DNA from: a virus
Taxonomy: Duplodnaviria > Heunggongvirae > Uroviricota > Caudoviricetes
Length of the DNA stretch: 4,112 nt
IMG/VR virus record: IMGVR_UViG_2695420478_000009
Direction: 5' to 3' (one strand)
Under the pieces are notes generated by a model that saw only the letters and a program-made list of their open reading frames with translations, made no database searches and was not told the DNA's origin. This document shows positions 1 through 4,112 of the stretch, piece by piece (position 1 is the first letter of the stretch; every line of letters starts with the position of its first letter). The position numbers and the translations under genes are program-made.

Positions 1-51
1 AACGCACTCAGCCGGGTATGGTTCAGCCCATTTTTCCCGGCGTCTCATGCC

Positions 52-181
52 GCAAATGTTAACTGCTGCCTGGTTAACATTTGCTGAAAAAGCCAGTTAA
101 CATTTTTTTCGCACAACAAACTGAATAATAAAGATAAAAACCGCAAAAATGCCCGGGCAGCCAGTTAACATGTTAACTGGC
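52..181. promoter_or_regulatory. Array of five GTTAAC-core half-sites (consensus about GCCAGTTAACAT) including a perfect 22-bp palindrome at 160-181; candidate terminase small-subunit (cosB-like) or dimeric regulator binding sites
   Basis: GTTAAC cores at 58, 73, 96, 164 and 172. There is a 12-bp inverted repeat at 52-63 / 73-84, and GCCAGTTAACATGTTAACTGGC at 160-181 is its own reverse complement. Confidence 0.5.
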
Positions 182-204
182 CTGAAACAGGAATTTTTTC
201 TCTG

Positions 205-271
205 CATGAGACGGGGGGCGGTGTCCGGAGCGATCGTTTTTCACGCCGGATGATACCCCCCCCCGCTCGGG
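205..271. other. GC-rich quasi-symmetric element with a C9 homopolymer, immediately 3' of the HNH gene; candidate cos (cosN-like) site
   Basis: GAGACGGGGGGCGGTGTCCGG...CGTTTTT...C9 resembles the lambda cosN region (ACG GGGCGGCGACCT CGCGGGTTTTCGC) as I remember it. HNH genes typically sit directly beside cos in HK97-like phages. Confidence 0.3.
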
Positions 272-637
272 TTACAGTCCGATGATGTCGTCCGCTCTGC
301 CACTACCTCCGGACACCTCCGGCAGCGTCGGGTCCGGCATACCACCCGCCGCTTCACGAGCAGACTTTTGTCGATGGCATTCGGTACAGAGCGTCCAGAG
401 ATTCGTCTCCTCATTACCACCACCGAACTGAAGTGCAATTCGGTGATCGAGTTCACTGTCACAGAGGTCAACCACACGACCACAGAGACAGCACTGCCCG
501 GCATCCCTGAGCCAGATATGACGCTTGAGGGAAACACGTGCACTGCCACTGACACGACGCTGTTCACCCTTCAGAATATTCACCCGTCGGGTATTCAGTG
601 TTTTGATTCTGCTCTGGAGTGTACGAAGCTCAGCCAT
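272..637 (-). CDS. Phage HNH endonuclease, 121 aa (copy 1)
   Basis: The provided ORF contains the motif CCLCGRVVDLCDSELDHRIALQFGGGNEETNLWTLCTECHRQK (Cys pairs plus H..N..H, a zinc-finger HNH fold). A GGGGA Shine-Dalgarno-like sequence lies about 6 nt upstream of the ATG. Confidence 0.85.
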   Translation of the reverse strand: MAELRTLQSRIKTLNTRRVNILKGEQRRVSGSARVSLKRHIWLRDAGQCCLCGRVVDLCDSELDHRIALQFGGGNEETNLWTLCTECHRQKSAREAAGGMPDPTLPEVSGGSGRADDIIGL

Positions 638-678
638 GTAAAATCCCCGTCATATGGCAATCAGTAAAGGAAATAAAT

Positions 679-725
679 ATGTCATCGAAAAACCGGACCC
701 GCAGAACCACAACCCGCAATATCCG
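679..725 (+). pseudogene. 5' fragment (first 15 codons) of the ylcI-like gene, cut off at the repeat junction
   Basis: Matches 1503-1549 with one synonymous difference. After 725 the frame runs into unrelated sequence (the tail of the provided ORF 619-909). Confidence 0.6.
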
Positions 726-873
726 AGCGGCAATGGCTGACGCTGTTTTGTTTTTCCCGGACATGAGCGCCAGCGCAAATTTTCGTTTTTGCGTTGTCAG
801 CACAGCCTCCTCCCGGGTCCATAACGCACTCAGCCGGGTATGGTTCAGCCCATTTTTCCCGGCGTCTCATGCC

Positions 874-1095: not shown

Positions 1096-1461
1096 TCACA
1101 GTCCGATGATATCGTCTGCCCTGCCATGACCTCCGGACACCTCCGGCAGCGTCGGGTCCGGCATACCACTCGCCGTTTCACTGACTGACTTCTGGCGATG
1201 GCATTCGGTACAGAGCGTCCAGAGATTCGTCTCCTCATTACCACCACCGAACTGAAGTGCAATGCGGTGATCGAGTTCACTGTCACAGAGGTCAACCACA
1301 CGACCACAGAGACAGCACTGCCCGGCATCCCTGAGCCAGATATGACGCTTGAGGGAAACACGTGCACTGCCACTGACACGACGCTGTTCCCCCTTCAGAA
1401 TATTCACCCGTCGGGTGTTCAGAGTTTTGATTCTGCTCTGGAGTGTACGAAGCTCAGCCAT
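1096..1461 (-). CDS. Phage HNH endonuclease, 121 aa (copy 2, variant C-terminal tail)
   Basis: The first 92 residues are identical to copy 1 and the nucleotide differences there are all synonymous. The C-terminal 29 residues carry 5 replacements. Confidence 0.85.
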   Translation of the reverse strand: MAELRTLQSRIKTLNTRRVNILKGEQRRVSGSARVSLKRHIWLRDAGQCCLCGRVVDLCDSELDHRIALQFGGGNEETNLWTLCTECHRQKSVSETASGMPDPTLPEVSGGHGRADDIIGL

Positions 1462-1502
1462 GTAAAATCCCCGTCATATGGCAATCAGTAAAGGAAATAA
1501 AT

Positions 1503-1688
1503 ATGTCATCGAAAAACCGTACCCGCAGAACCACAACCCGCAATATCCGTTTCCCCAATCACATGATTGAACAGATCAACATCGCCCTTGAGCATAAAGG
1601 GTCCAGTAACTTTTCAGCGTGGGTTATTGAAGCCTGCAGAAGAAGGCTGTCAACAGAGAGTTCGGGTATGAATTACATAATTAAGTAA
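1503..1688 (+). CDS. Small DUF3950-like protein, 61 aa (YlcI/YnfO-like, possible ribbon-helix-helix DNA binder)
   Basis: Strong SD (AAGGA) 8 nt upstream of ATG 1503. The protein MSSKNRTRRTTTRNIRFPNHMIEQINIALEHKGSSNFSAWVIEACRRRL matches my recollection of YlcI/YnfO from DLP12/Qin. It is divergent from the HNH gene with a 41-bp gap. Confidence 0.65.
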   Translation: MSSKNRTRRTTTRNIRFPNHMIEQINIALEHKGSSNFSAWVIEACRRRLSTESSGMNYIIK

Positions 1689-1820: not shown

Positions 1821-1961
1821 TTACTCAAAAAAAAGCGACGAGAAAATCAGCATCAACGAACAATAAGCGCCAATACGTGATAACAAATGGCAGCCATATT
1901 TATCTGCAGTATAAGCAATGGACAGGATAACCACACCAGAAACCGTCAGCATAAAATCCAT
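1821..1961 (-). CDS. Candidate 46-aa hydrophobic small protein in the AT-rich island (MDFMLTVSGVVILSIAYTADKYGCHLLSRIGAYCSLMLIFSSLFFE)
   Basis: Hand-translated ORF ending in TAA, with a purine-rich GGGGAAG about 6 nt upstream of the ATG. No recognised homolog, and it is below the ORF-track size cutoff. Confidence 0.2.
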   Translation of the reverse strand: MDFMLTVSGVVILSIAYTADKYGCHLLSRIGAYCSLMLIFSSLFFE

Positions 1962-2311
1962 TTGAACTTCCCCGGACAAAATCGACTCATCTAAAGATTT
2001 ACAGCTCTTTTTATTATCAATATGTTAAAAGTAAAATAAACAGATGTTCAATAACACGAATACAAAAACGTGCTGAAATTCAATGAATCCATTTCTGTGT
2101 CATCAATTAATAGTGATAAACATCCGGCTTCTTCCACCATCGCACCGGACAGGCGACTATGAGGGGACAACGCCGCGCTCCGTTAACGCGGTAAACCCCG
2201 GTGTGTATCGTTTTTGATTATCCCCGCACACTCGCGCAGAGGAGTCTCCCTGTCGGGCTGCGGTCTCTGTTAATGAGGGAATACAGCGACGATACGGCGC
2301 ATCAACAAAAC

Positions 2312-2779
2312 TTATTTCAGGCACTGAGTGCGGATATAGTCCTGTGCCCCTTCCAGTTGCTTCTGCATTGTCATCAACCGCTCTCTGAGGGTGAAATAAT
2401 CCCGTTCAGCGGTGTCTGCCAGTCGGGGGCCGGTTGCATTATCCATTCCGGAGGTGCCGGTGGCTTCACGCACGGTACCGGAGCAGGTGGCGTTGATCCG
2501 CAGGCGCTTACGACCAGCGGCAACATCAGCACGCAGAGTTTCATTTTCAGCTCTCGCATCGGCTAATTCCCTCGAGTATTTTGCATCGAGCGCAGCAACA
2601 TCGCGCTGGCGCACCTGCATATCAGTAATGGTTGCATTTGCCAGCTCCAGCTCACTGACTTTTTTATCGCGCTGCTCTTTGTAGGTTATGGCGTTATCAC
2701 GGTAATGATTCAGCCCCAGACTAAGCGCACCACAGGCCACCAGCAGGGCAATGATGACCACGCACAGTACGCGGTTCAT
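2312..2779 (-). CDS. Rz: Rz i-spanin, 155 aa
   Basis: The protein from MNRVLCVVIIALLVACG... has an N-terminal TM segment followed by NHYRDNAITYK...DVAALDAKY...RLADTAERDYFTLRERL.TMQKQLEG, closely matching lambda Rz. Start taken at ATG 2779 because the track's 2803 start is a TTG. Confidence 0.9.
   Translation of the reverse strand: MNRVLCVVIIALLVACGALSLGLNHYRDNAITYKEQRDKKVSELELANATITDMQVRQRDVAALDAKYSRELADARAENETLRADVAAGRKRLRINATCSGTVREATGTSGMDNATGPRLADTAERDYFTLRERLMTMQKQLEGAQDYIRTQCLK
2374..2559 (-). CDS. Rz1: Rz1 o-spanin lipoprotein, embedded in the +1 frame of Rz
   Basis: MRELKMKLCVLMLPLVVSACGSTPP...CVKPPAPPEWIMQPAPDWQTPLNGIISPSESG has a lipobox (VSAC) and a proline-rich body, matching lambda Rz1. 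Confidence 0.85.
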   Translation of the reverse strand: MRELKMKLCVLMLPLVVSACGSTPPAPVPCVKPPAPPEWIMQPAPDWQTPLNGIISPSESG

Positions 2780-2780
2780 T

Positions 2781-2882
2781 TCACCACCAGCGTATCTGAC
2801 CAATGAAATAACCGGAAGCCATAATCACAAACACCAGCCAGATAAGGATGAACTTCCAGGTGGATAATTTTTCAGCCATCAT
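2781..2882 (-). CDS. Candidate 33-aa single-pass membrane protein (MMAEKLSTWKFILIWLVFVIMASGYFIGQIRWW) between the endolysin and Rz
   Basis: GGGAG SD 6 nt upstream of ATG 2882. Its TGA stop lies 1 nt before the Rz ATG (TGAAATG). The longer 72-aa version in the track starts at a GTG inside the terminator hairpin. Confidence 0.35.
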   Translation of the reverse strand: MMAEKLSTWKFILIWLVFVIMASGYFIGQIRWW

Positions 2883-2954
2883 TCGAATCTCCCGAATCAG
2901 TTTGCTAAAATCAAACACACTTTCTCCTTTGACTTTTCCGGAGTCAGGAAACAC

Positions 2955-2987
2955 AAAACCCCGCTTGCGGCCAACAAACGGGGTTTT
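2955..2987 (-). terminator. Bidirectional rho-independent terminator hairpin between the endolysin and the downstream small ORF/Rz
   Basis: AAAACCCCGCTTG / CAAACGGGGTTTT forms a 13-bp stem with one mismatch and a 7-nt loop, flanked by an A-run and a T-run so that a U-tract follows on either strand. Confidence 0.6.
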
Positions 2988-3076
2988 ACTTTTATTCACT
3001 TAGTTTTTGCCAGTTCGCAGGATTTCGTGTTATCCGCCCGTGTGAGCAAACCGCATTTTTCAGCAAAATATTCTGC

Positions 3077-3610
3077 TTATCTGTCAATTCCCCAGCACGC
3101 CAGCGCGCTCTCCTGGTCACGACGGGATACCTGACCGTAACAGTTGTTTGAACGAATACGGCAGTCTCTGCCACCGTCCTTAATCCACCAGCGAATCGCT
3201 TCGCAGGCACCTTTTCGATCACCTGCATTAATTCGTCTGTAAAACGTAGACGGGAAACACTTACCGGGACCAATGTTGTACGGACAGAATGACGCAATAC
3301 CCGCTTTCTGGGGTTCGGTCAGTGGCACTCTGATGTTTTTCGCCACCCATGCCAGCGCCTTATCACGTTCAATGGCGTTAACCTGGTCGCATTTTTCCTT
3401 CGACAACTTCATGCCCGGGAGGACAGGCTTACCATCCACCCGGGTGGCTCCACGGCAGATGGTCCAGATACCCGCACCATCACGGTATGCCGTGGTGTGG
3501 TTACCTTCCTTTTCATCCAGAAACTGGTCGAGGATTTCAGGCGCAGGCGCACCTGCGGCAATCAGCGCCAGAACGGCAGCCGACAGGCCGTATTTGATTT
3601 TGGTGTTCAT
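3077..3610 (-). CDS. SAR endolysin, 177 aa (T4-lysozyme-like muramidase, RrrQ-type)
   Basis: Gly/Ala-rich N-terminal signal-anchor (YGLSAAVLALIAAGAPAP) followed by a catalytic triad with E-x8-D-x5-T spacing (EGNHTTAYRDGAGIWT). The 177-aa length and sequence match my recollection of the Qin lysozyme. Confidence 0.9.
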   Translation of the reverse strand: MNTKIKYGLSAAVLALIAAGAPAPEILDQFLDEKEGNHTTAYRDGAGIWTICRGATRVDGKPVLPGMKLSKEKCDQVNAIERDKALAWVAKNIRVPLTEPQKAGIASFCPYNIGPGKCFPSTFYRRINAGDRKGACEAIRWWIKDGGRDCRIRSNNCYGQVSRRDQESALACWGIDR

Positions 3611-3652: not shown

Positions 3653-3985
3653 TTAAGTCTTCAGAGAACCAGTAATTATTCCCGGTAGTTTTCCTCTGTA
3701 GATTATCAACACATCCTGCGCCTCTAAAATGATGGGCCGCTTTTCCGGCAACGGACCATCCCCTTCACATAACCCGGCAGCAACATCCATGAAAAACTGC
3801 TTCGCCTGCTTTTTCGCCTCAGCTTCGTAAAACTCCAGCGTGGCACCTTCAGTACGGTCAAGACTAATCGCCACATCTGGCAACAACAGTGACGGATACC
3901 CACCAATTTCCAGTGCCACAGTAACAGTAATCTTATCCGGGTAATTATTTATCCCTTTAACAACCAGTTCGTATTTTTTCTTCAT
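3653..3985 (-). CDS. ydfR: YdfR-like DUF1327 protein, 110 aa, unknown function, sitting between holin and endolysin
   Basis: The ATG lies 4 nt after the holin stop with a GGGAGAG SD. The protein has no TM segment or signal peptide. The holin-ydfR-lysozyme order matches the Qin prophage as I recall it. Confidence 0.7.
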   Translation of the reverse strand: MKKKYELVVKGINNYPDKITVTVALEIGGYPSLLLPDVAISLDRTEGATLEFYEAEAKKQAKQFFMDVAAGLCEGDGPLPEKRPIILEAQDVLIIYRGKLPGIITGSLKT

Positions 3986-3989
3986 CGCT

Positions 3990-4112
3990 TTACTCTCCCC
4001 GGGCAGCCTTGCGACGGTCCTCTCTGATTTTGAAATACAGGTTAGTCAGATACGTCAGCAGGCCAAACAGCAGACTCCCCAGCACACCTATCGCCACCCA
4101 CTGGGACGGAGA
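3990..4112 (-). CDS. S21-type pinholin (class II holin), C-terminal 40 codons only; the 5' end lies beyond the window
   Basis: Hand translation gives [40 protein letters not shown], a TM segment plus charged tail that matches the phage 21 S / EssD C-terminus as I remember it. Confidence 0.7.

What the first reader, a model, noticed from the sequence alone, without database searches (positions are those of the whole stretch)
2781..2987. Terminator plus candidate 33-aa membrane micro-ORF inserted between endolysin and Rz
A strong bidirectional hairpin terminator (2955-2987) follows the endolysin. About 70 nt further on there is a short ORF with a good SD (GGGAG, 6-nt spacing) encoding a single hydrophobic helix (WKFILIWLVFVIMASGYFIG) and a C-terminal RWW. 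Its stop is 1 nt from the Rz start (TGAAATG), which suggests translational coupling to the spanin gene. I do not recall a gene at this position in lambda or phage 21. A small membrane protein coupled to the spanins could modulate spanin or holin function, or it may be an unannotated small protein.
Basis: seen in the sequence. Interest (0 to 1): 0.45.

Follow-up and report, generated by a model that had tools for sequence, protein, structure and literature searches.

The report
Antisense-guarded small phage membrane-protein cassette
The short reading frame between the phage lysozyme and spanin genes is a real, widely conserved 45-residue membrane-protein gene that moves between phages as a cassette with its own upstream terminator, a hairpin next to its ribosome site and, by sequence prediction only, a promoter for a small antisense RNA, so it looks like a tightly throttled toxin-like late gene rather than a spanin accessory.

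Summary
The hairpin, the ORF, its hydrophobic helix, the RWW end and the TGAAATG junction with Rz are all present. The gene is longer than reported. The conserved frame starts at GTG 2918 (AAGGAG 5 nt upstream) and encodes 45 aa, a full-length match to PHROG phrog_6632 (unknown function). The proposed start, ATG 2882, is Val in most E. coli relatives.

The gene is under protein-level selection. About 900 of 5426 complete E. coli genomes carry it, mostly unannotated. Relatives occur in phages of Salmonella, Enterobacter, Citrobacter, Yersinia, Pantoea, Edwardsiella and Pseudomonas. It lies between endolysin and spanin genes (four unrelated endolysin families), but also among baseplate, tail, portal and toxin-antitoxin genes. 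It is therefore a mobile cassette, not a spanin-specific partner.

In all 28 lineages examined the cassette has the same four parts:
- a two-way terminator;
- a covarying hairpin next to the ribosome site;
- a start codon that is GTG or TTG in most lineages;
- an invariant extended -10 motif (TGNTANNNT) on the opposite strand of codons 3-6.

That motif would drive a ~76-nt antisense RNA across the ribosome site, ending at the terminator. The layout resembles P22 sar/ant and type I toxin-antitoxin loci. I found no expression data, and the protein's function is unknown.

The parts
2781..2918 (-). 45-aa small membrane-protein gene (GTG start, TGA stop 2781-2783): VFDFSKLIREIRMMAEKLSTWKFILIWLVFVIMASGYFIGQIRWW. 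It has an N-terminal amphipathic, positively charged helix, a kink, a transmembrane helix, and ends in RWW.
   Evidence: Full-length phrog_6632 match. 87 relatives in the 5.8-billion-protein search and 75 clusters at 50% identity. Purifying selection. AlphaFold2 pLDDT 80.7, helices 4-17 and 20-43.
2781..2882 (-). It is the C-terminal two thirds of the real gene. The invariant Met14 is ATG 2879-2877, with GGGAG at 2889-2893 upstream, so an internal start giving 32 aa is possible.
2924..2929 (-). Shine-Dalgarno AAGGAG, 5 nt before GTG 2918.
   Evidence: Read from the sequence. A purine-rich ribosome site lies at the same place in most of the 25 lineages.
2923..2951 (-). Small hairpin next to the Shine-Dalgarno sequence (UUUCCUGACU...AGUCAAAGGAGA). 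It pairs the ribosome site with upstream sequence.
   Evidence: Fold. Covariation: 4 of 5 pairs change on both sides and 90% of cells are paired. Own-versus-swapped arm test p 0.0001-0.006.
2954..2988 (.). Two-way intrinsic terminator hairpin: A-tract, 15-bp GC-rich stem, T-tract. It is the 5' boundary of the cassette.
   Evidence: Present in all lineages. Helix 1 is 94.5% paired, with 6 pairs changed on both sides. There are 18 G-U cells against 4 A-C cells, so the inner stem is tuned for the sense RNA.
2903..2911 (+). Predicted extended -10 promoter element TGCTAAAAT on the strand opposite the gene (TG 2903-2904, hexamer 2906-2911). It overlaps codons 3-6. A weak -35-like TCGAAT lies at 2883-2888 (17-nt spacer).
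   Evidence: The motif TGNTANNNT is at the same codons in 25 of 25 lineages (expected 3.4 under synonymous recoding) and in 3 of 3 further lineages tested afterwards. The third bases of codons 4 and 5 are invariant. Not shown experimentally.
2917..2994 (+). Predicted ~76-nt cis-antisense RNA: start about 2917-2919, two hairpins, ending in the T-tract of the two-way terminator. It is complementary to the start codon, the Shine-Dalgarno sequence and the whole 5' leader of the small gene.
   Evidence: Geometry. Inferred; no transcript data found.
2312..2779 (-). Rz i-spanin gene (context). Its ATG is 1 nt after the small gene's stop. Rz1 is embedded at 2374-2559.
   Evidence: PF03245 E 3e-50 and phrog_13. 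ORF list.
3077..3610 (-). Endolysin R (context; Ala/Gly-rich N-terminus like a signal-anchor-release lysozyme).
   Evidence: PF00959 E 1.4e-24 and phrog_7. The signal-anchor reading is my own reading of the sequence.

Best explanation
Shown:
- Window 2781-2988 (minus strand) is one copy of a mobile phage cassette.
- Its gene encodes a 45-aa tail-anchored inner-membrane protein. It has a basic amphipathic cytoplasmic helix, a kink at Ser/Pro-x-Trp, one transmembrane helix and a C-terminal RWW at the periplasmic face.
- The cassette always starts with a two-way intrinsic terminator. A hairpin that pairs the ribosome site follows it. The start codon is GTG or TTG in most lineages.
- The cassette contains no conserved promoter for the gene itself.

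Inferred:
- The gene can only be transcribed by RNA polymerase reading through the terminator from the upstream late operon. In this lambdoid phage that would be Q-modified polymerase.
- An invariant extended -10 element (TGNTANNNT) on the opposite strand of codons 3-6 fires a ~76-nt antisense RNA. This RNA covers the start codon and Shine-Dalgarno sequence and stops at the same terminator.
- In a lysogen, or early in infection, the antisense RNA together with the terminator and the hairpin would keep the protein off. Heavy late transcription would out-titrate the antisense RNA and occlude its promoter, so the protein appears only late.
- Such triple throttling implies that premature synthesis is harmful. 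I therefore read the protein as a membrane-perturbing, type-I-toxin-like late function, for example one that aids or times lysis. It is not a dedicated spanin partner.
- In lambdoid contexts the 1-nt gap to Rz probably couples Rz translation to it.
For: Real gene:
- Full-length phrog_6632 match.
- 85 of 85 E. coli-type loci are intact, with 7 synonymous and 2 non-synonymous variants and a per-site N/S of 0.08.
- Across 25 lineages pN/pS is 0.41, with conservative I/L/V/F and R/K replacements through residues 2-13.
- The sense frame scores BLOSUM 2.95 per site against 1.76 for the best antisense frame.
- The AlphaFold2 model is helix-kink-helix, pLDDT 80.7.

Mobile cassette:
- The same unit lies between four unrelated endolysin families and three spanin types.
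- It also lies between baseplate genes, after tail gene K, near portal and T7_gp14-like genes, and among toxin-antitoxin modules.
- Homology to the other contexts begins inside the hairpin and ends at the stop codon (hit H17).

Structured leader:
- 93.5% of cells are paired against 80.2% in shuffles (0 of 500 reach it).
- 10 of 18 pairs change on both sides. The covariation score is 0.347 against 0.098. Slid controls give 38-59% paired.

Antisense promoter:
- TGNTANNNT sits at the same codons in 25 of 25 lineages as 7 different 9-mers, against 3.4 expected.
- Elsewhere in the 25 segments of 295 nt the motif occurs only 3 times on the antisense strand and 5 times on the sense strand.
- Residue 5 is Ser, Ile or Thr, always with an A-N-C codon. 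The third base of codon 4 is always T across Phe, Ile, Tyr, Leu and Ser.
- Synonymous divergence is depressed in codons 2-13 (0.49 against 0.82).
- Three further lineages fetched after the motif was defined all carry it: TGATAAAAT, TGGTATAAT, TGATATAAT.
- The predicted RNA folds into two hairpins.

Precedents:
- The 68/69-nt sar RNA of P22 pairs with ant mRNA and represses antirepressor synthesis (PMC12197685).
- The type I system hokW-sokW in Stx prophage Sp5 assists lysis and phage release (PMC8621323).
Against: - I found no transcript, start-site, ribosome-profiling or toxicity data for this locus. The antisense RNA and the late-only expression are inferences from sequence.
- The -35 is weak (TCGAAT, 3 of 6).
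- Rfam has no family here; the best hit is rimP leader at 22.6 bits against a gathering score of 47.
- The Hfq cross-linking catalogue of EHEC Sakai lists no sRNA at an R-Rz junction. In the four Sakai prophage lysis regions inspected (Sp4, Sp6, Sp10, Sp15) the slot holds other cargo, so this is only weakly informative.
- Classical type I toxins have their own promoter and a stable mRNA; this cassette has none.
- RNAalifold on a plain MAFFT alignment predicted no structure.
- A first own-versus-swapped pairing test that included the T-tract was not significant (p 0.15).
- The covariation counts come from an alignment fitted to the model, which favours the structure.
- The invariant bases could reflect some other constraint on the first codons, such as an A/U-rich, unstructured initiation region. 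That would not explain the invariant C in codon 5.
- A few database copies are frameshifted.
- No homology to any protein of known function: Pfam, NCBIfam, PADLOC and PDB all gave nothing.
Confidence: 0.5

Rival explanations
1. It is a lysis-cassette accessory that acts specifically on the spanin or holin. A small membrane protein would be translationally coupled to Rz and would modulate spanin or pinholin function.
For: In enterobacterial lambdoid prophages it sits directly between endolysin and spanin genes, whatever the endolysin family (PF00959, GH19, Peptidase_M15_4) or spanin type (PF03245, DUF2570/LysC). The stop is 1 nt from the spanin ATG in three diverged lineages. Other small transmembrane ORFs, some also ending in RWW, occupy the same slot in other prophages.
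Against: The same cassette lies between baseplate genes, after tail gene K, near portal and T7_gp14-like genes, and next to toxin-antitoxin modules, far from any spanin. The R-Rz junction also accepts unrelated cargo such as an antirepressor gene or nothing, so position alone is weak evidence. The most conserved part is the cytoplasmic N-terminal helix, not the membrane or periplasmic part that could meet Rz.
Confidence: 0.2
2. It is a classical moron expressed from the prophage. It would give the lysogen a membrane-level benefit such as superinfection exclusion, as described for the HK97 gp15 tail-region moron.
For: It shows presence/absence polymorphism between otherwise related prophages. 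It sits at known cargo hot spots such as the tail K/I junction and the region before terminase. It is a small inner-membrane protein. The HK97 gp15 comparison is from my own knowledge and was not tested here.
Against: No conserved sense promoter lies inside the cassette, and the leader between the terminator and the start codon is only 36-44 nt. A sense-optimised terminator sits immediately upstream. The only conserved promoter-like element points the other way. PADLOC has no match.
Confidence: 0.15
3. The functional product is the small plus-strand RNA itself, a trans-acting or anti-phage sRNA. The open frame on the minus strand would be incidental, or the real frame would be the plus-strand ORF 2848-3003.
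For: Prophages of EHEC encode many short terminator-ended sRNAs at cargo sites (PMC4104026). Synonymous sites of codons 2-13 are constrained. The plus-strand frame shares third codon positions with the minus-strand frame and stays open over codons 2-27 in 23 of 25 lineages.
Against: The minus-strand protein is conserved down to about 30% identity. The pattern of amphipathic helix, Trp-Lys/Arg-Phe and a hydrophobic helix is preserved while the DNA diverges. It scores BLOSUM 2.95 against 1.76 for the plus-strand frame. The plus-strand frame is broken in 19 of 25 lineages once it is extended through the leader and terminator that it would have to cross.
Confidence: 0.07
4. It is a chance ORF in an intergenic spacer behind the endolysin terminator, with no function.
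For: It is short and usually unannotated, and a few frameshifted copies exist.
Against: 85 of 85 sampled loci are intact, with a 7:2 synonymous excess. There are 75 clusters at 50% identity across Enterobacterales and Pseudomonas phages. The frame is conserved in unrelated genomic contexts.
Confidence: 0.02

Closest known systems
PHROG phrog_6632 (45-aa phage protein family, function unknown); RefSeq WP_000459345.1 'hypothetical protein'
   Same: The window protein matches the whole profile (1-45 of 45, E 1.8e-29). PGAP calls the same 45-aa frame in some genomes.
   Different: Nothing differs; this is the family. The family has no described function, regulation or structure.
P22 sar RNA / ant (antisense control in the immI region)
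   Same: As predicted here: a ~70-nt antisense RNA that pairs with the target mRNA and blocks its translation. sar is listed as 68/69 nt, pairing with ant mRNA and inhibiting antirepressor synthesis (PMC12197685). From my own knowledge, its promoter lies inside the start of ant and the RNA ends at the arc-ant intercistronic terminator. That is the same geometry.
   Different: The target here is a 45-aa membrane protein, not an antirepressor. There is no sequence similarity. The RNA here is predicted only. The cassette is mobile and is found in many phage types.
Type I toxin-antitoxin systems (hok/sok, symE/SymR, ibs/sib, zor/orz; hokW-sokW of Stx prophage Sp5)
   Same: A small hydrophobic membrane protein, a sequestered ribosome site, and a cis-encoded antisense RNA over the translation start. 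hokW-sokW shows that such a pair in an Stx prophage can assist lysis and phage release (PMC8621323).
   Different: No homology to any known toxin or antitoxin. The toxin gene has no promoter of its own and depends on read-through of an upstream terminator. The protein has a 22-residue conserved cytoplasmic helix that classical type I toxins lack. Toxicity is untested.
Phage morons (Juhala et al. 2000; e.g. lambda bor/lom, HK97 gp15)
   Same: An extra gene inserted between conserved late genes, present in some relatives and absent in others, at known cargo hot spots.
   Different: Morons are described as promoter-gene-terminator units expressed from the prophage. Here the terminator is upstream and no sense promoter is conserved.
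Holin/antiholin dual-start genes (lambda S105/S107, S21 68/71)
   Same: A small membrane protein in a lysis cassette, with two possible in-frame starts (GTG 2918, and the invariant Met14 with its own GGGAG) and an RNA hairpin at the upstream ribosome site.
   Different: It has one transmembrane helix and 45 aa, matches no holin family, lies downstream of the endolysin, and occurs outside lysis cassettes.

Membership tests
phrog_6632 | Significant full-length match to the family profile | tested here: met
   E 1.8e-29, residues 28-72 of the 72-aa frame matched to profile positions 1-45 of 45.
Type I toxin-antitoxin system | Small (<60 aa) hydrophobic membrane protein as the toxin candidate | tested here: met
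   45 aa. Hydrophobic stretch from residue 23 to about 41. AlphaFold2 helix 20-43.
Type I toxin-antitoxin system | Antisense RNA transcribed from its own promoter that pairs with the toxin mRNA | tested here: inconclusive
   An extended -10 motif is conserved in 28 of 28 lineages, with a two-way terminator at the right distance. No transcript data exist.
Type I toxin-antitoxin system | Toxin gene has its own promoter and its product is toxic when over-produced | tested here: not met
   The promoter half was tested and not met. No conserved sense promoter exists, the leader is 36-44 nt, and a sense terminator lies directly upstream. Toxicity cannot be tested with these tools.
Type I toxin-antitoxin system | Homology to a described toxin or antitoxin family | tested here: not met
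   No Pfam, NCBIfam, PADLOC or Rfam match.
Moron (promoter-gene-terminator insert expressed from the prophage) | Extra DNA between genes that are adjacent in related phages | tested here: met
   R and Rz are adjacent in K-12 Qin. In Sakai prophages the slot holds other cargo. The cassette is present in about 900 of 5426 E. coli genomes.
Moron (promoter-gene-terminator insert expressed from the prophage) | Own promoter upstream and terminator downstream of the gene | tested here: not met
   The terminator is upstream. The next gene starts 1-22 nt after the stop in the lysis-cassette and baseplate contexts read. No sense promoter was found.
Holin / antiholin | Match to a holin family, or the position and topology of a holin | tested here: not met
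   No holin family hit. The cassette's own class II holin lies upstream at 3990-4112. This protein has a single transmembrane helix and lies downstream of R.
Spanin (Rz/Rz1) | Periplasmic coiled-coil domain (i-spanin) or lipobox lipoprotein (o-spanin) | tested here: not met
   Only 3 residues follow the membrane helix, there is no lipobox, and there is no PF03245 match.
Intrinsic (rho-independent) terminator, two-way | GC-rich stem-loop followed by a U-run, on both strands | tested here: met
   -22.8 kcal/mol, z = -4.35. T-runs on both sides in all lineages. Compensatory changes in 6 of 13 pairs. Termination itself was not measured.
sar/ant-type cis-antisense control | Promoter inside the 5' coding region of the target, a ~70-nt RNA over the ribosome site, ending at an intercistronic terminator | tested here: inconclusive
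   The geometry fits: -10 at 2906-2911, predicted start 2917-2919, terminator 2954-2988 with T-run to 2994. Expression cannot be tested here.

The most novel reading that the evidence does not exclude
This would be a previously undescribed, widely spread family of phage cassettes that work like a type I toxin-antitoxin pair turned inside out. The only autonomous promoter is the antisense one, and it is built into codons 3-6 of the gene. That would explain why residue 5 can only be Ser, Ile or Thr (codons A-N-C). The membrane toxin would be made only when late-operon polymerase reads through the cassette's own terminator and swamps the antisense RNA. The result would be a threshold switch that releases a membrane-active peptide at the end of the lytic cycle, to time or assist lysis. 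In a lysogen it could possibly silence the same gene, and the coupled spanin, of a superinfecting relative.
Probability: 0.35. Interest if true: 0.72.

Novelty: new variant of a known kind. Interest (0 to 1): 0.58.

Why it matters
About one in six complete E. coli genomes carries this gene. So do sequenced Shiga-toxin phages, including H-19B, CP-1639 and many Stx1a, Stx2a and Stx2c phages. Annotation mostly skips it, and I found no paper that mentions it.

If the predicted antisense control is real, it would be a compact, portable expression-threshold device. It would also be a clear case of a promoter on one strand dictating which amino acids the other strand may encode.

If the protein affects membrane integrity or lysis timing, it bears on how Stx phages release toxin and progeny. 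A type I system in an Stx prophage has already been shown to halve phage release when deleted (PMC8621323).

The practical point for annotators is simple. The frame should be called as 45 aa from the GTG, not as 33, 32 or 72 aa.

Tried and rejected
- Pfam, NCBIfam, PADLOC, and a PDB search with a family profile: no informative match.
- Rfam at a permissive threshold: only sub-threshold noise.
- Full-text search for the peptide, the accession or the PHROG id: 0 papers.
- Supplements of the Sakai small-gene ribosome-profiling paper: no occurrence.
- Hfq cross-linking sRNA catalogue of EHEC Sakai:
  - EcOnc22 lies in the I-J tail intergenic region next to an unrelated 39-aa ORF.
  - EcOnc11 lies downstream of Rz, not in the R-Rz gap.
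  - The four Sakai prophage lysis regions inspected carry other cargo in the R-Rz slot.
- Plus-strand sigma-70-like site at 2796-2825 from the consensus scan: rejected as the antisense promoter because a by-eye comparison found it absent from homologues.
- 72-aa GTG 2999 frame: rejected as not conserved.
- Plus-strand ORF 2848-3003: rejected.
- RNAalifold on a MAFFT alignment of the leader: no structure predicted, because the arms were misaligned.
- Automated segmentation of the hairpins failed.
- Own-versus-swapped duplex test including the T-tract: not significant. It became significant only after the T-tract was excluded.
- G-U/A-C asymmetry for the second helix: not interpretable, because the window-type hairpin is forced into the model's register.
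- An integron attC-like or attachment-site reading of the hairpin was considered and dropped. It is an ordinary A-tract, GC stem, T-tract terminator.
Full report
**1. Setting**

The window is the late region of a lambdoid, Stx-phage-type prophage, read on the minus strand.
- The end of a class II holin gene lies at 3990-4112.
- A YdfR/DUF1327 gene lies at 3653-3985.
- The lysozyme R lies at 3077-3610 (PF00959).
- The i-spanin Rz lies at 2312-2779 (PF03245), with Rz1 embedded at 2374-2559.
- The stretch 2700-3100 is 100% identical to E. coli E2863 and to Stx2a and Stx2c phage records.

**2. The observation**

- The hairpin at 2954-2988 folds as a 15-bp stem with a 5-nt loop. With its flanks the energy is -22.8 kcal/mol (z = -4.35). 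T-runs lie on both sides.
- The 33-aa frame from ATG 2882, the GGGAG 6 nt upstream, the hydrophobic helix, the RWW end and the TGAAATG junction with Rz are all as described.

The frame is longer than reported.
- GTG 2918, preceded by AAGGAG at 5 nt, gives 45 aa. This form matches PHROG phrog_6632 over its full length (E 1.8e-29).
- PGAP sometimes calls this same frame (WP_000459345.1). One phage record calls a 72-aa GTG 2999 frame instead.
- In homologues from other contexts the ORF is the 45-aa frame.
Met14 is invariant.

**3. Is it a gene?**

The comparative evidence says yes.
- The 5.8-billion-protein search found 87 relatives. They come from Escherichia, Salmonella, Enterobacter, Citrobacter, Klebsiella, Trabulsiella, Providencia and Pseudomonas.
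- A profile search of 1.84 billion cluster representatives found 75 clusters, 25 of them below E 1e-10.
- One genome per species added Yersinia, Edwardsiella, Sodalis, Brenneria and Pantoea.
- In 85 E. coli-type loci (32 distinct sequences) the frame is never broken. Nine sites vary, seven of them at third codon positions. There are 7 synonymous and 2 non-synonymous variants, a per-site ratio of 0.08.
- Across 25 lineages that differ by more than 10% in DNA, pN/pS is 0.41 with synonymous sites near saturation.
- Replacements in residues 2-13 are conservative (I/L/V/F/M, R/K, D/N/E) and use many different codons.

One caveat applies. The plus-strand ORF 2848-3003 shares third codon positions with the minus-strand frame, so the codon-position pattern alone does not pick the strand.
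- The plus-strand frame scores worse (BLOSUM62 1.76 against 2.95 per site).
- It is interrupted in 19 of 25 lineages once it is carried through the leader and terminator that it would have to cross.

AlphaFold2 with the family alignment gives helix 4-17, a break at 18-19 and helix 20-43 (pLDDT 80.7). With five basic residues before the hydrophobic helix and only RWW after it, the topology I infer is N-terminus inside and C-terminus outside, that is, tail-anchored.

**4. Where it occurs**

About 900 of 5426 complete E. coli genomes carry the 220-nt unit at 80% coverage or more. Most sampled records have no annotated feature under it.

In lambdoid prophages it lies between endolysin and spanin genes, and the partners are not homologous from case to case.
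- Here the partners are a PF00959 lysozyme and Rz.
- In Enterobacter the upstream gene is a GH19 endolysin.
- In other E. coli prophages the endolysin is Peptidase_M15_4 (one of them also carries a GH108 enzyme). The spanin is either Rz or DUF2570/LysC.

The same gene also lies in quite different settings.
- Between baseplate spike and wedge genes in Salmonella phage SEN34, Rac-SA53 and an E. coli O169 prophage.
- After tail gene K in Pseudomonas aeruginosa siphoviruses and in another lineage.
- Just before a portal gene, and beside a T7_gp14-like gene.
- Next to ParE/RelB and HicAB modules upstream of a terminase.

The R-Rz junction itself is a cargo slot.
- K-12 Qin has nothing there.
- Sakai Sp10 and Sp15 have an antirepressor gene plus a different 48-aa membrane ORF.
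- Sakai Sp4 has another small membrane ORF ending in AIRWW behind the same leader.

Position therefore does not argue for a spanin-specific role.

**5. The cassette**

Homology between contexts starts inside the hairpin and ends at the stop codon (hit H17). Every lineage examined has the same order of parts.
- An A-tract, a GC-rich hairpin and a T-tract.
- A 36-44-nt leader (about 75 nt in one lineage) in which a short stem pairs the ribosome site.
- A start codon that is GTG or TTG in most lineages.
- The 44-51-aa frame.

I built a covariance model from 11 hand-checked sequences. It found the element in front of the gene in 28 places. On the resulting alignment:
- 93.5% of cells pair, against 80.2% in shuffles (0 of 500 reach the observed value);
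- 10 of 18 pairs change on both sides;
- the covariation score is 0.347 against 0.098;
- sliding the partner drops pairing to 38-59%.

The alignment is fitted to the model, so these numbers lean towards the structure.

An independent test asked whether each lineage's own 5' arm pairs better with its own ribosome-site arm than with those of other lineages. It gave p 0.0001-0.006 once the T-tract was excluded. With the T-tract included it was not significant.

In the terminator, 18 G-U cells against 4 A-C cells show that the inner stem is tuned to fold in the sense RNA. The hairpin is therefore selected to act on transcripts coming from the upstream late gene.

No conserved sense promoter exists between the terminator and the start codon.

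**6. The antisense element**

The opposite strand of codons 3-6 reads TGCTAAAAT in the window (2903-2911). This is an extended -10 promoter element.
- In 25 of 25 lineages the same position reads TGNTANNNT, as seven different 9-mers.
- The five specified bases are invariant, while the N positions vary.
- Given each lineage's amino acids and the family's codon usage, 3.4 matches are expected.
- Elsewhere in the 25 segments of 295 nt the motif occurs three times on that strand and five times on the other.
- The third base of codon 4 is always T, although the residue is Phe, Ile, Tyr, Leu or Ser.
- Residue 5 is Ser, Ile or Thr, always encoded A-N-C.
- Synonymous divergence in codons 2-13 is 0.49, against 0.82 in codons 14-27.

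After defining the motif I fetched three more distant lineages as a test. All three carry it at the same codons: TGATAAAAT, TGGTATAAT and TGATATAAT.

The -35 is weak (TCGAAT at 2883-2888, 17-nt spacer).

A start 6-8 nt downstream of the hexamer (2917-2919) and termination in the plus-strand T-run (to about 2994) would give a ~76-nt RNA with two hairpins. This RNA is complementary to the start codon, the Shine-Dalgarno sequence and the whole leader.

This part is inference. I found no transcript data. Rfam has no family here. The Sakai Hfq catalogue is uninformative because the Sakai prophages I inspected lack this gene.

**7. Mechanism proposed**

Shown: a conserved tail-anchored membrane protein whose gene is preceded by a sense terminator and a ribosome-site hairpin, and which mostly uses weak start codons.

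Inferred:
- The gene is transcribed only by read-through from the late operon.
- A constitutive antisense RNA blocks translation of stray transcripts until late transcription overwhelms it.

The geometry is that of P22 sar/ant (PMC12197685, plus my own knowledge of where the promoter and terminator lie) and of type I toxin-antitoxin loci. hokW-sokW of Stx prophage Sp5 is a precedent for such a pair assisting lysis and phage release (PMC8621323).

Three independent brakes suggest that early expression is harmful. For that reason I favour a membrane-perturbing late function.

My estimates are:
- about 0.95 that this is a real 45-aa gene of phrog_6632;
- about 0.85 that the terminator-leader-gene unit is a mobile cassette;
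- about 0.55 that the antisense promoter is active;
- about 0.35 that the protein behaves as a toxin-like aid to lysis or a lysis timer.

**8. Comparison and novelty**

The protein family is catalogued but uncharacterised. It fails membership of holins, spanins and known type I toxins by homology. It lacks the toxin promoter of classical type I systems. It also lacks the promoter-gene-terminator order of classical morons.

It works like a sar/ant or type I pair, and is best filed as a new variant of antisense-controlled small membrane-protein genes.

The full-text search returned no paper mentioning it.

Noticed in passing
window 2190-2238 (+): This stretch lies 74-122 nt past the Rz stop and antisense to the lysis genes. 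The surrounding alignment is 95% identical to the part of Sakai prophage Sp10 that holds the abundant Hfq-bound peak EcOnc11 (the same RNA as EcOnc10 and EcOnc12; Tree et al. 2014, Table S2). The window therefore probably encodes that uncharacterised prophage sRNA.
   Followed up: partly
window 1-822 and 823-1640: Tandem duplication of about 822 bp (94-98% identity). It gives two copies of a 121-aa HNH endonuclease gene (272-637 and 1096-1461, minus strand) and two long C/G runs (256-265, 1075-1087). The YlcI/YnfO-like frame is complete only in the second copy (1443-1688, plus strand).
   Followed up: partly
window 2877-2893 (-): Met14 (ATG 2879-2877) is invariant in all 25 lineages and is preceded by GGGAG (codons 9-10; the Glu10 codon is GAG in 96%). 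An internal start giving a 32-aa protein without the amphipathic helix is possible. This would resemble dual-start holin genes or the sas/sieB switch of P22.
   Followed up: partly
L155 5615-5867 (Sakai Sp4); L007 1600-2170; L154 1249-1395 (Sakai Sp15): The R-Rz slot of other prophages holds other small single-helix membrane ORFs. ECs_1094 (37 aa, ending AIRWW) lies behind the same terminator and leader but has a different N-terminus. ECs_5741/ECs_1966 (48 aa) follows an antirepressor gene. Phage vB_EcoS-783R2 has three such ORFs in a row.
   Followed up: partly
L028 2919-3005, 3623-3711, 5149-5237: One prophage carries three copies of the terminator-plus-leader element among ParE/RelB and HicAB-type modules. 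Two of them precede a second kind of RWW-ending small membrane ORF (MNSTDAGIV...AIRWW) that lacks the antisense -10 motif.
   Followed up: partly
window 3653-3985 (-): A 110-aa YdfR/DUF1327 gene of unknown function sits between the class II holin and the endolysin, as in K-12 Qin.
   Followed up: no
window 1821-1979 (-): A 52-aa hydrophobic ORF (MSGEVQMDFMLTVSGVVILSIAYTADKYGC...) lies in the AT-rich stretch downstream of Rz. It was not examined.
   Followed up: no
L151 3192-3431 (Sakai Sp15, I-J tail intergenic region): The ~85-nt Hfq-dependent sRNA EcOnc22 maps antisense to the tail operon in a 240-nt gap. The gap also holds a 39-aa non-membrane ORF on the tail-gene strand. This is another small ORF with an antisense RNA at a tail cargo site, unrelated in sequence to the cassette studied here.
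   Followed up: partly
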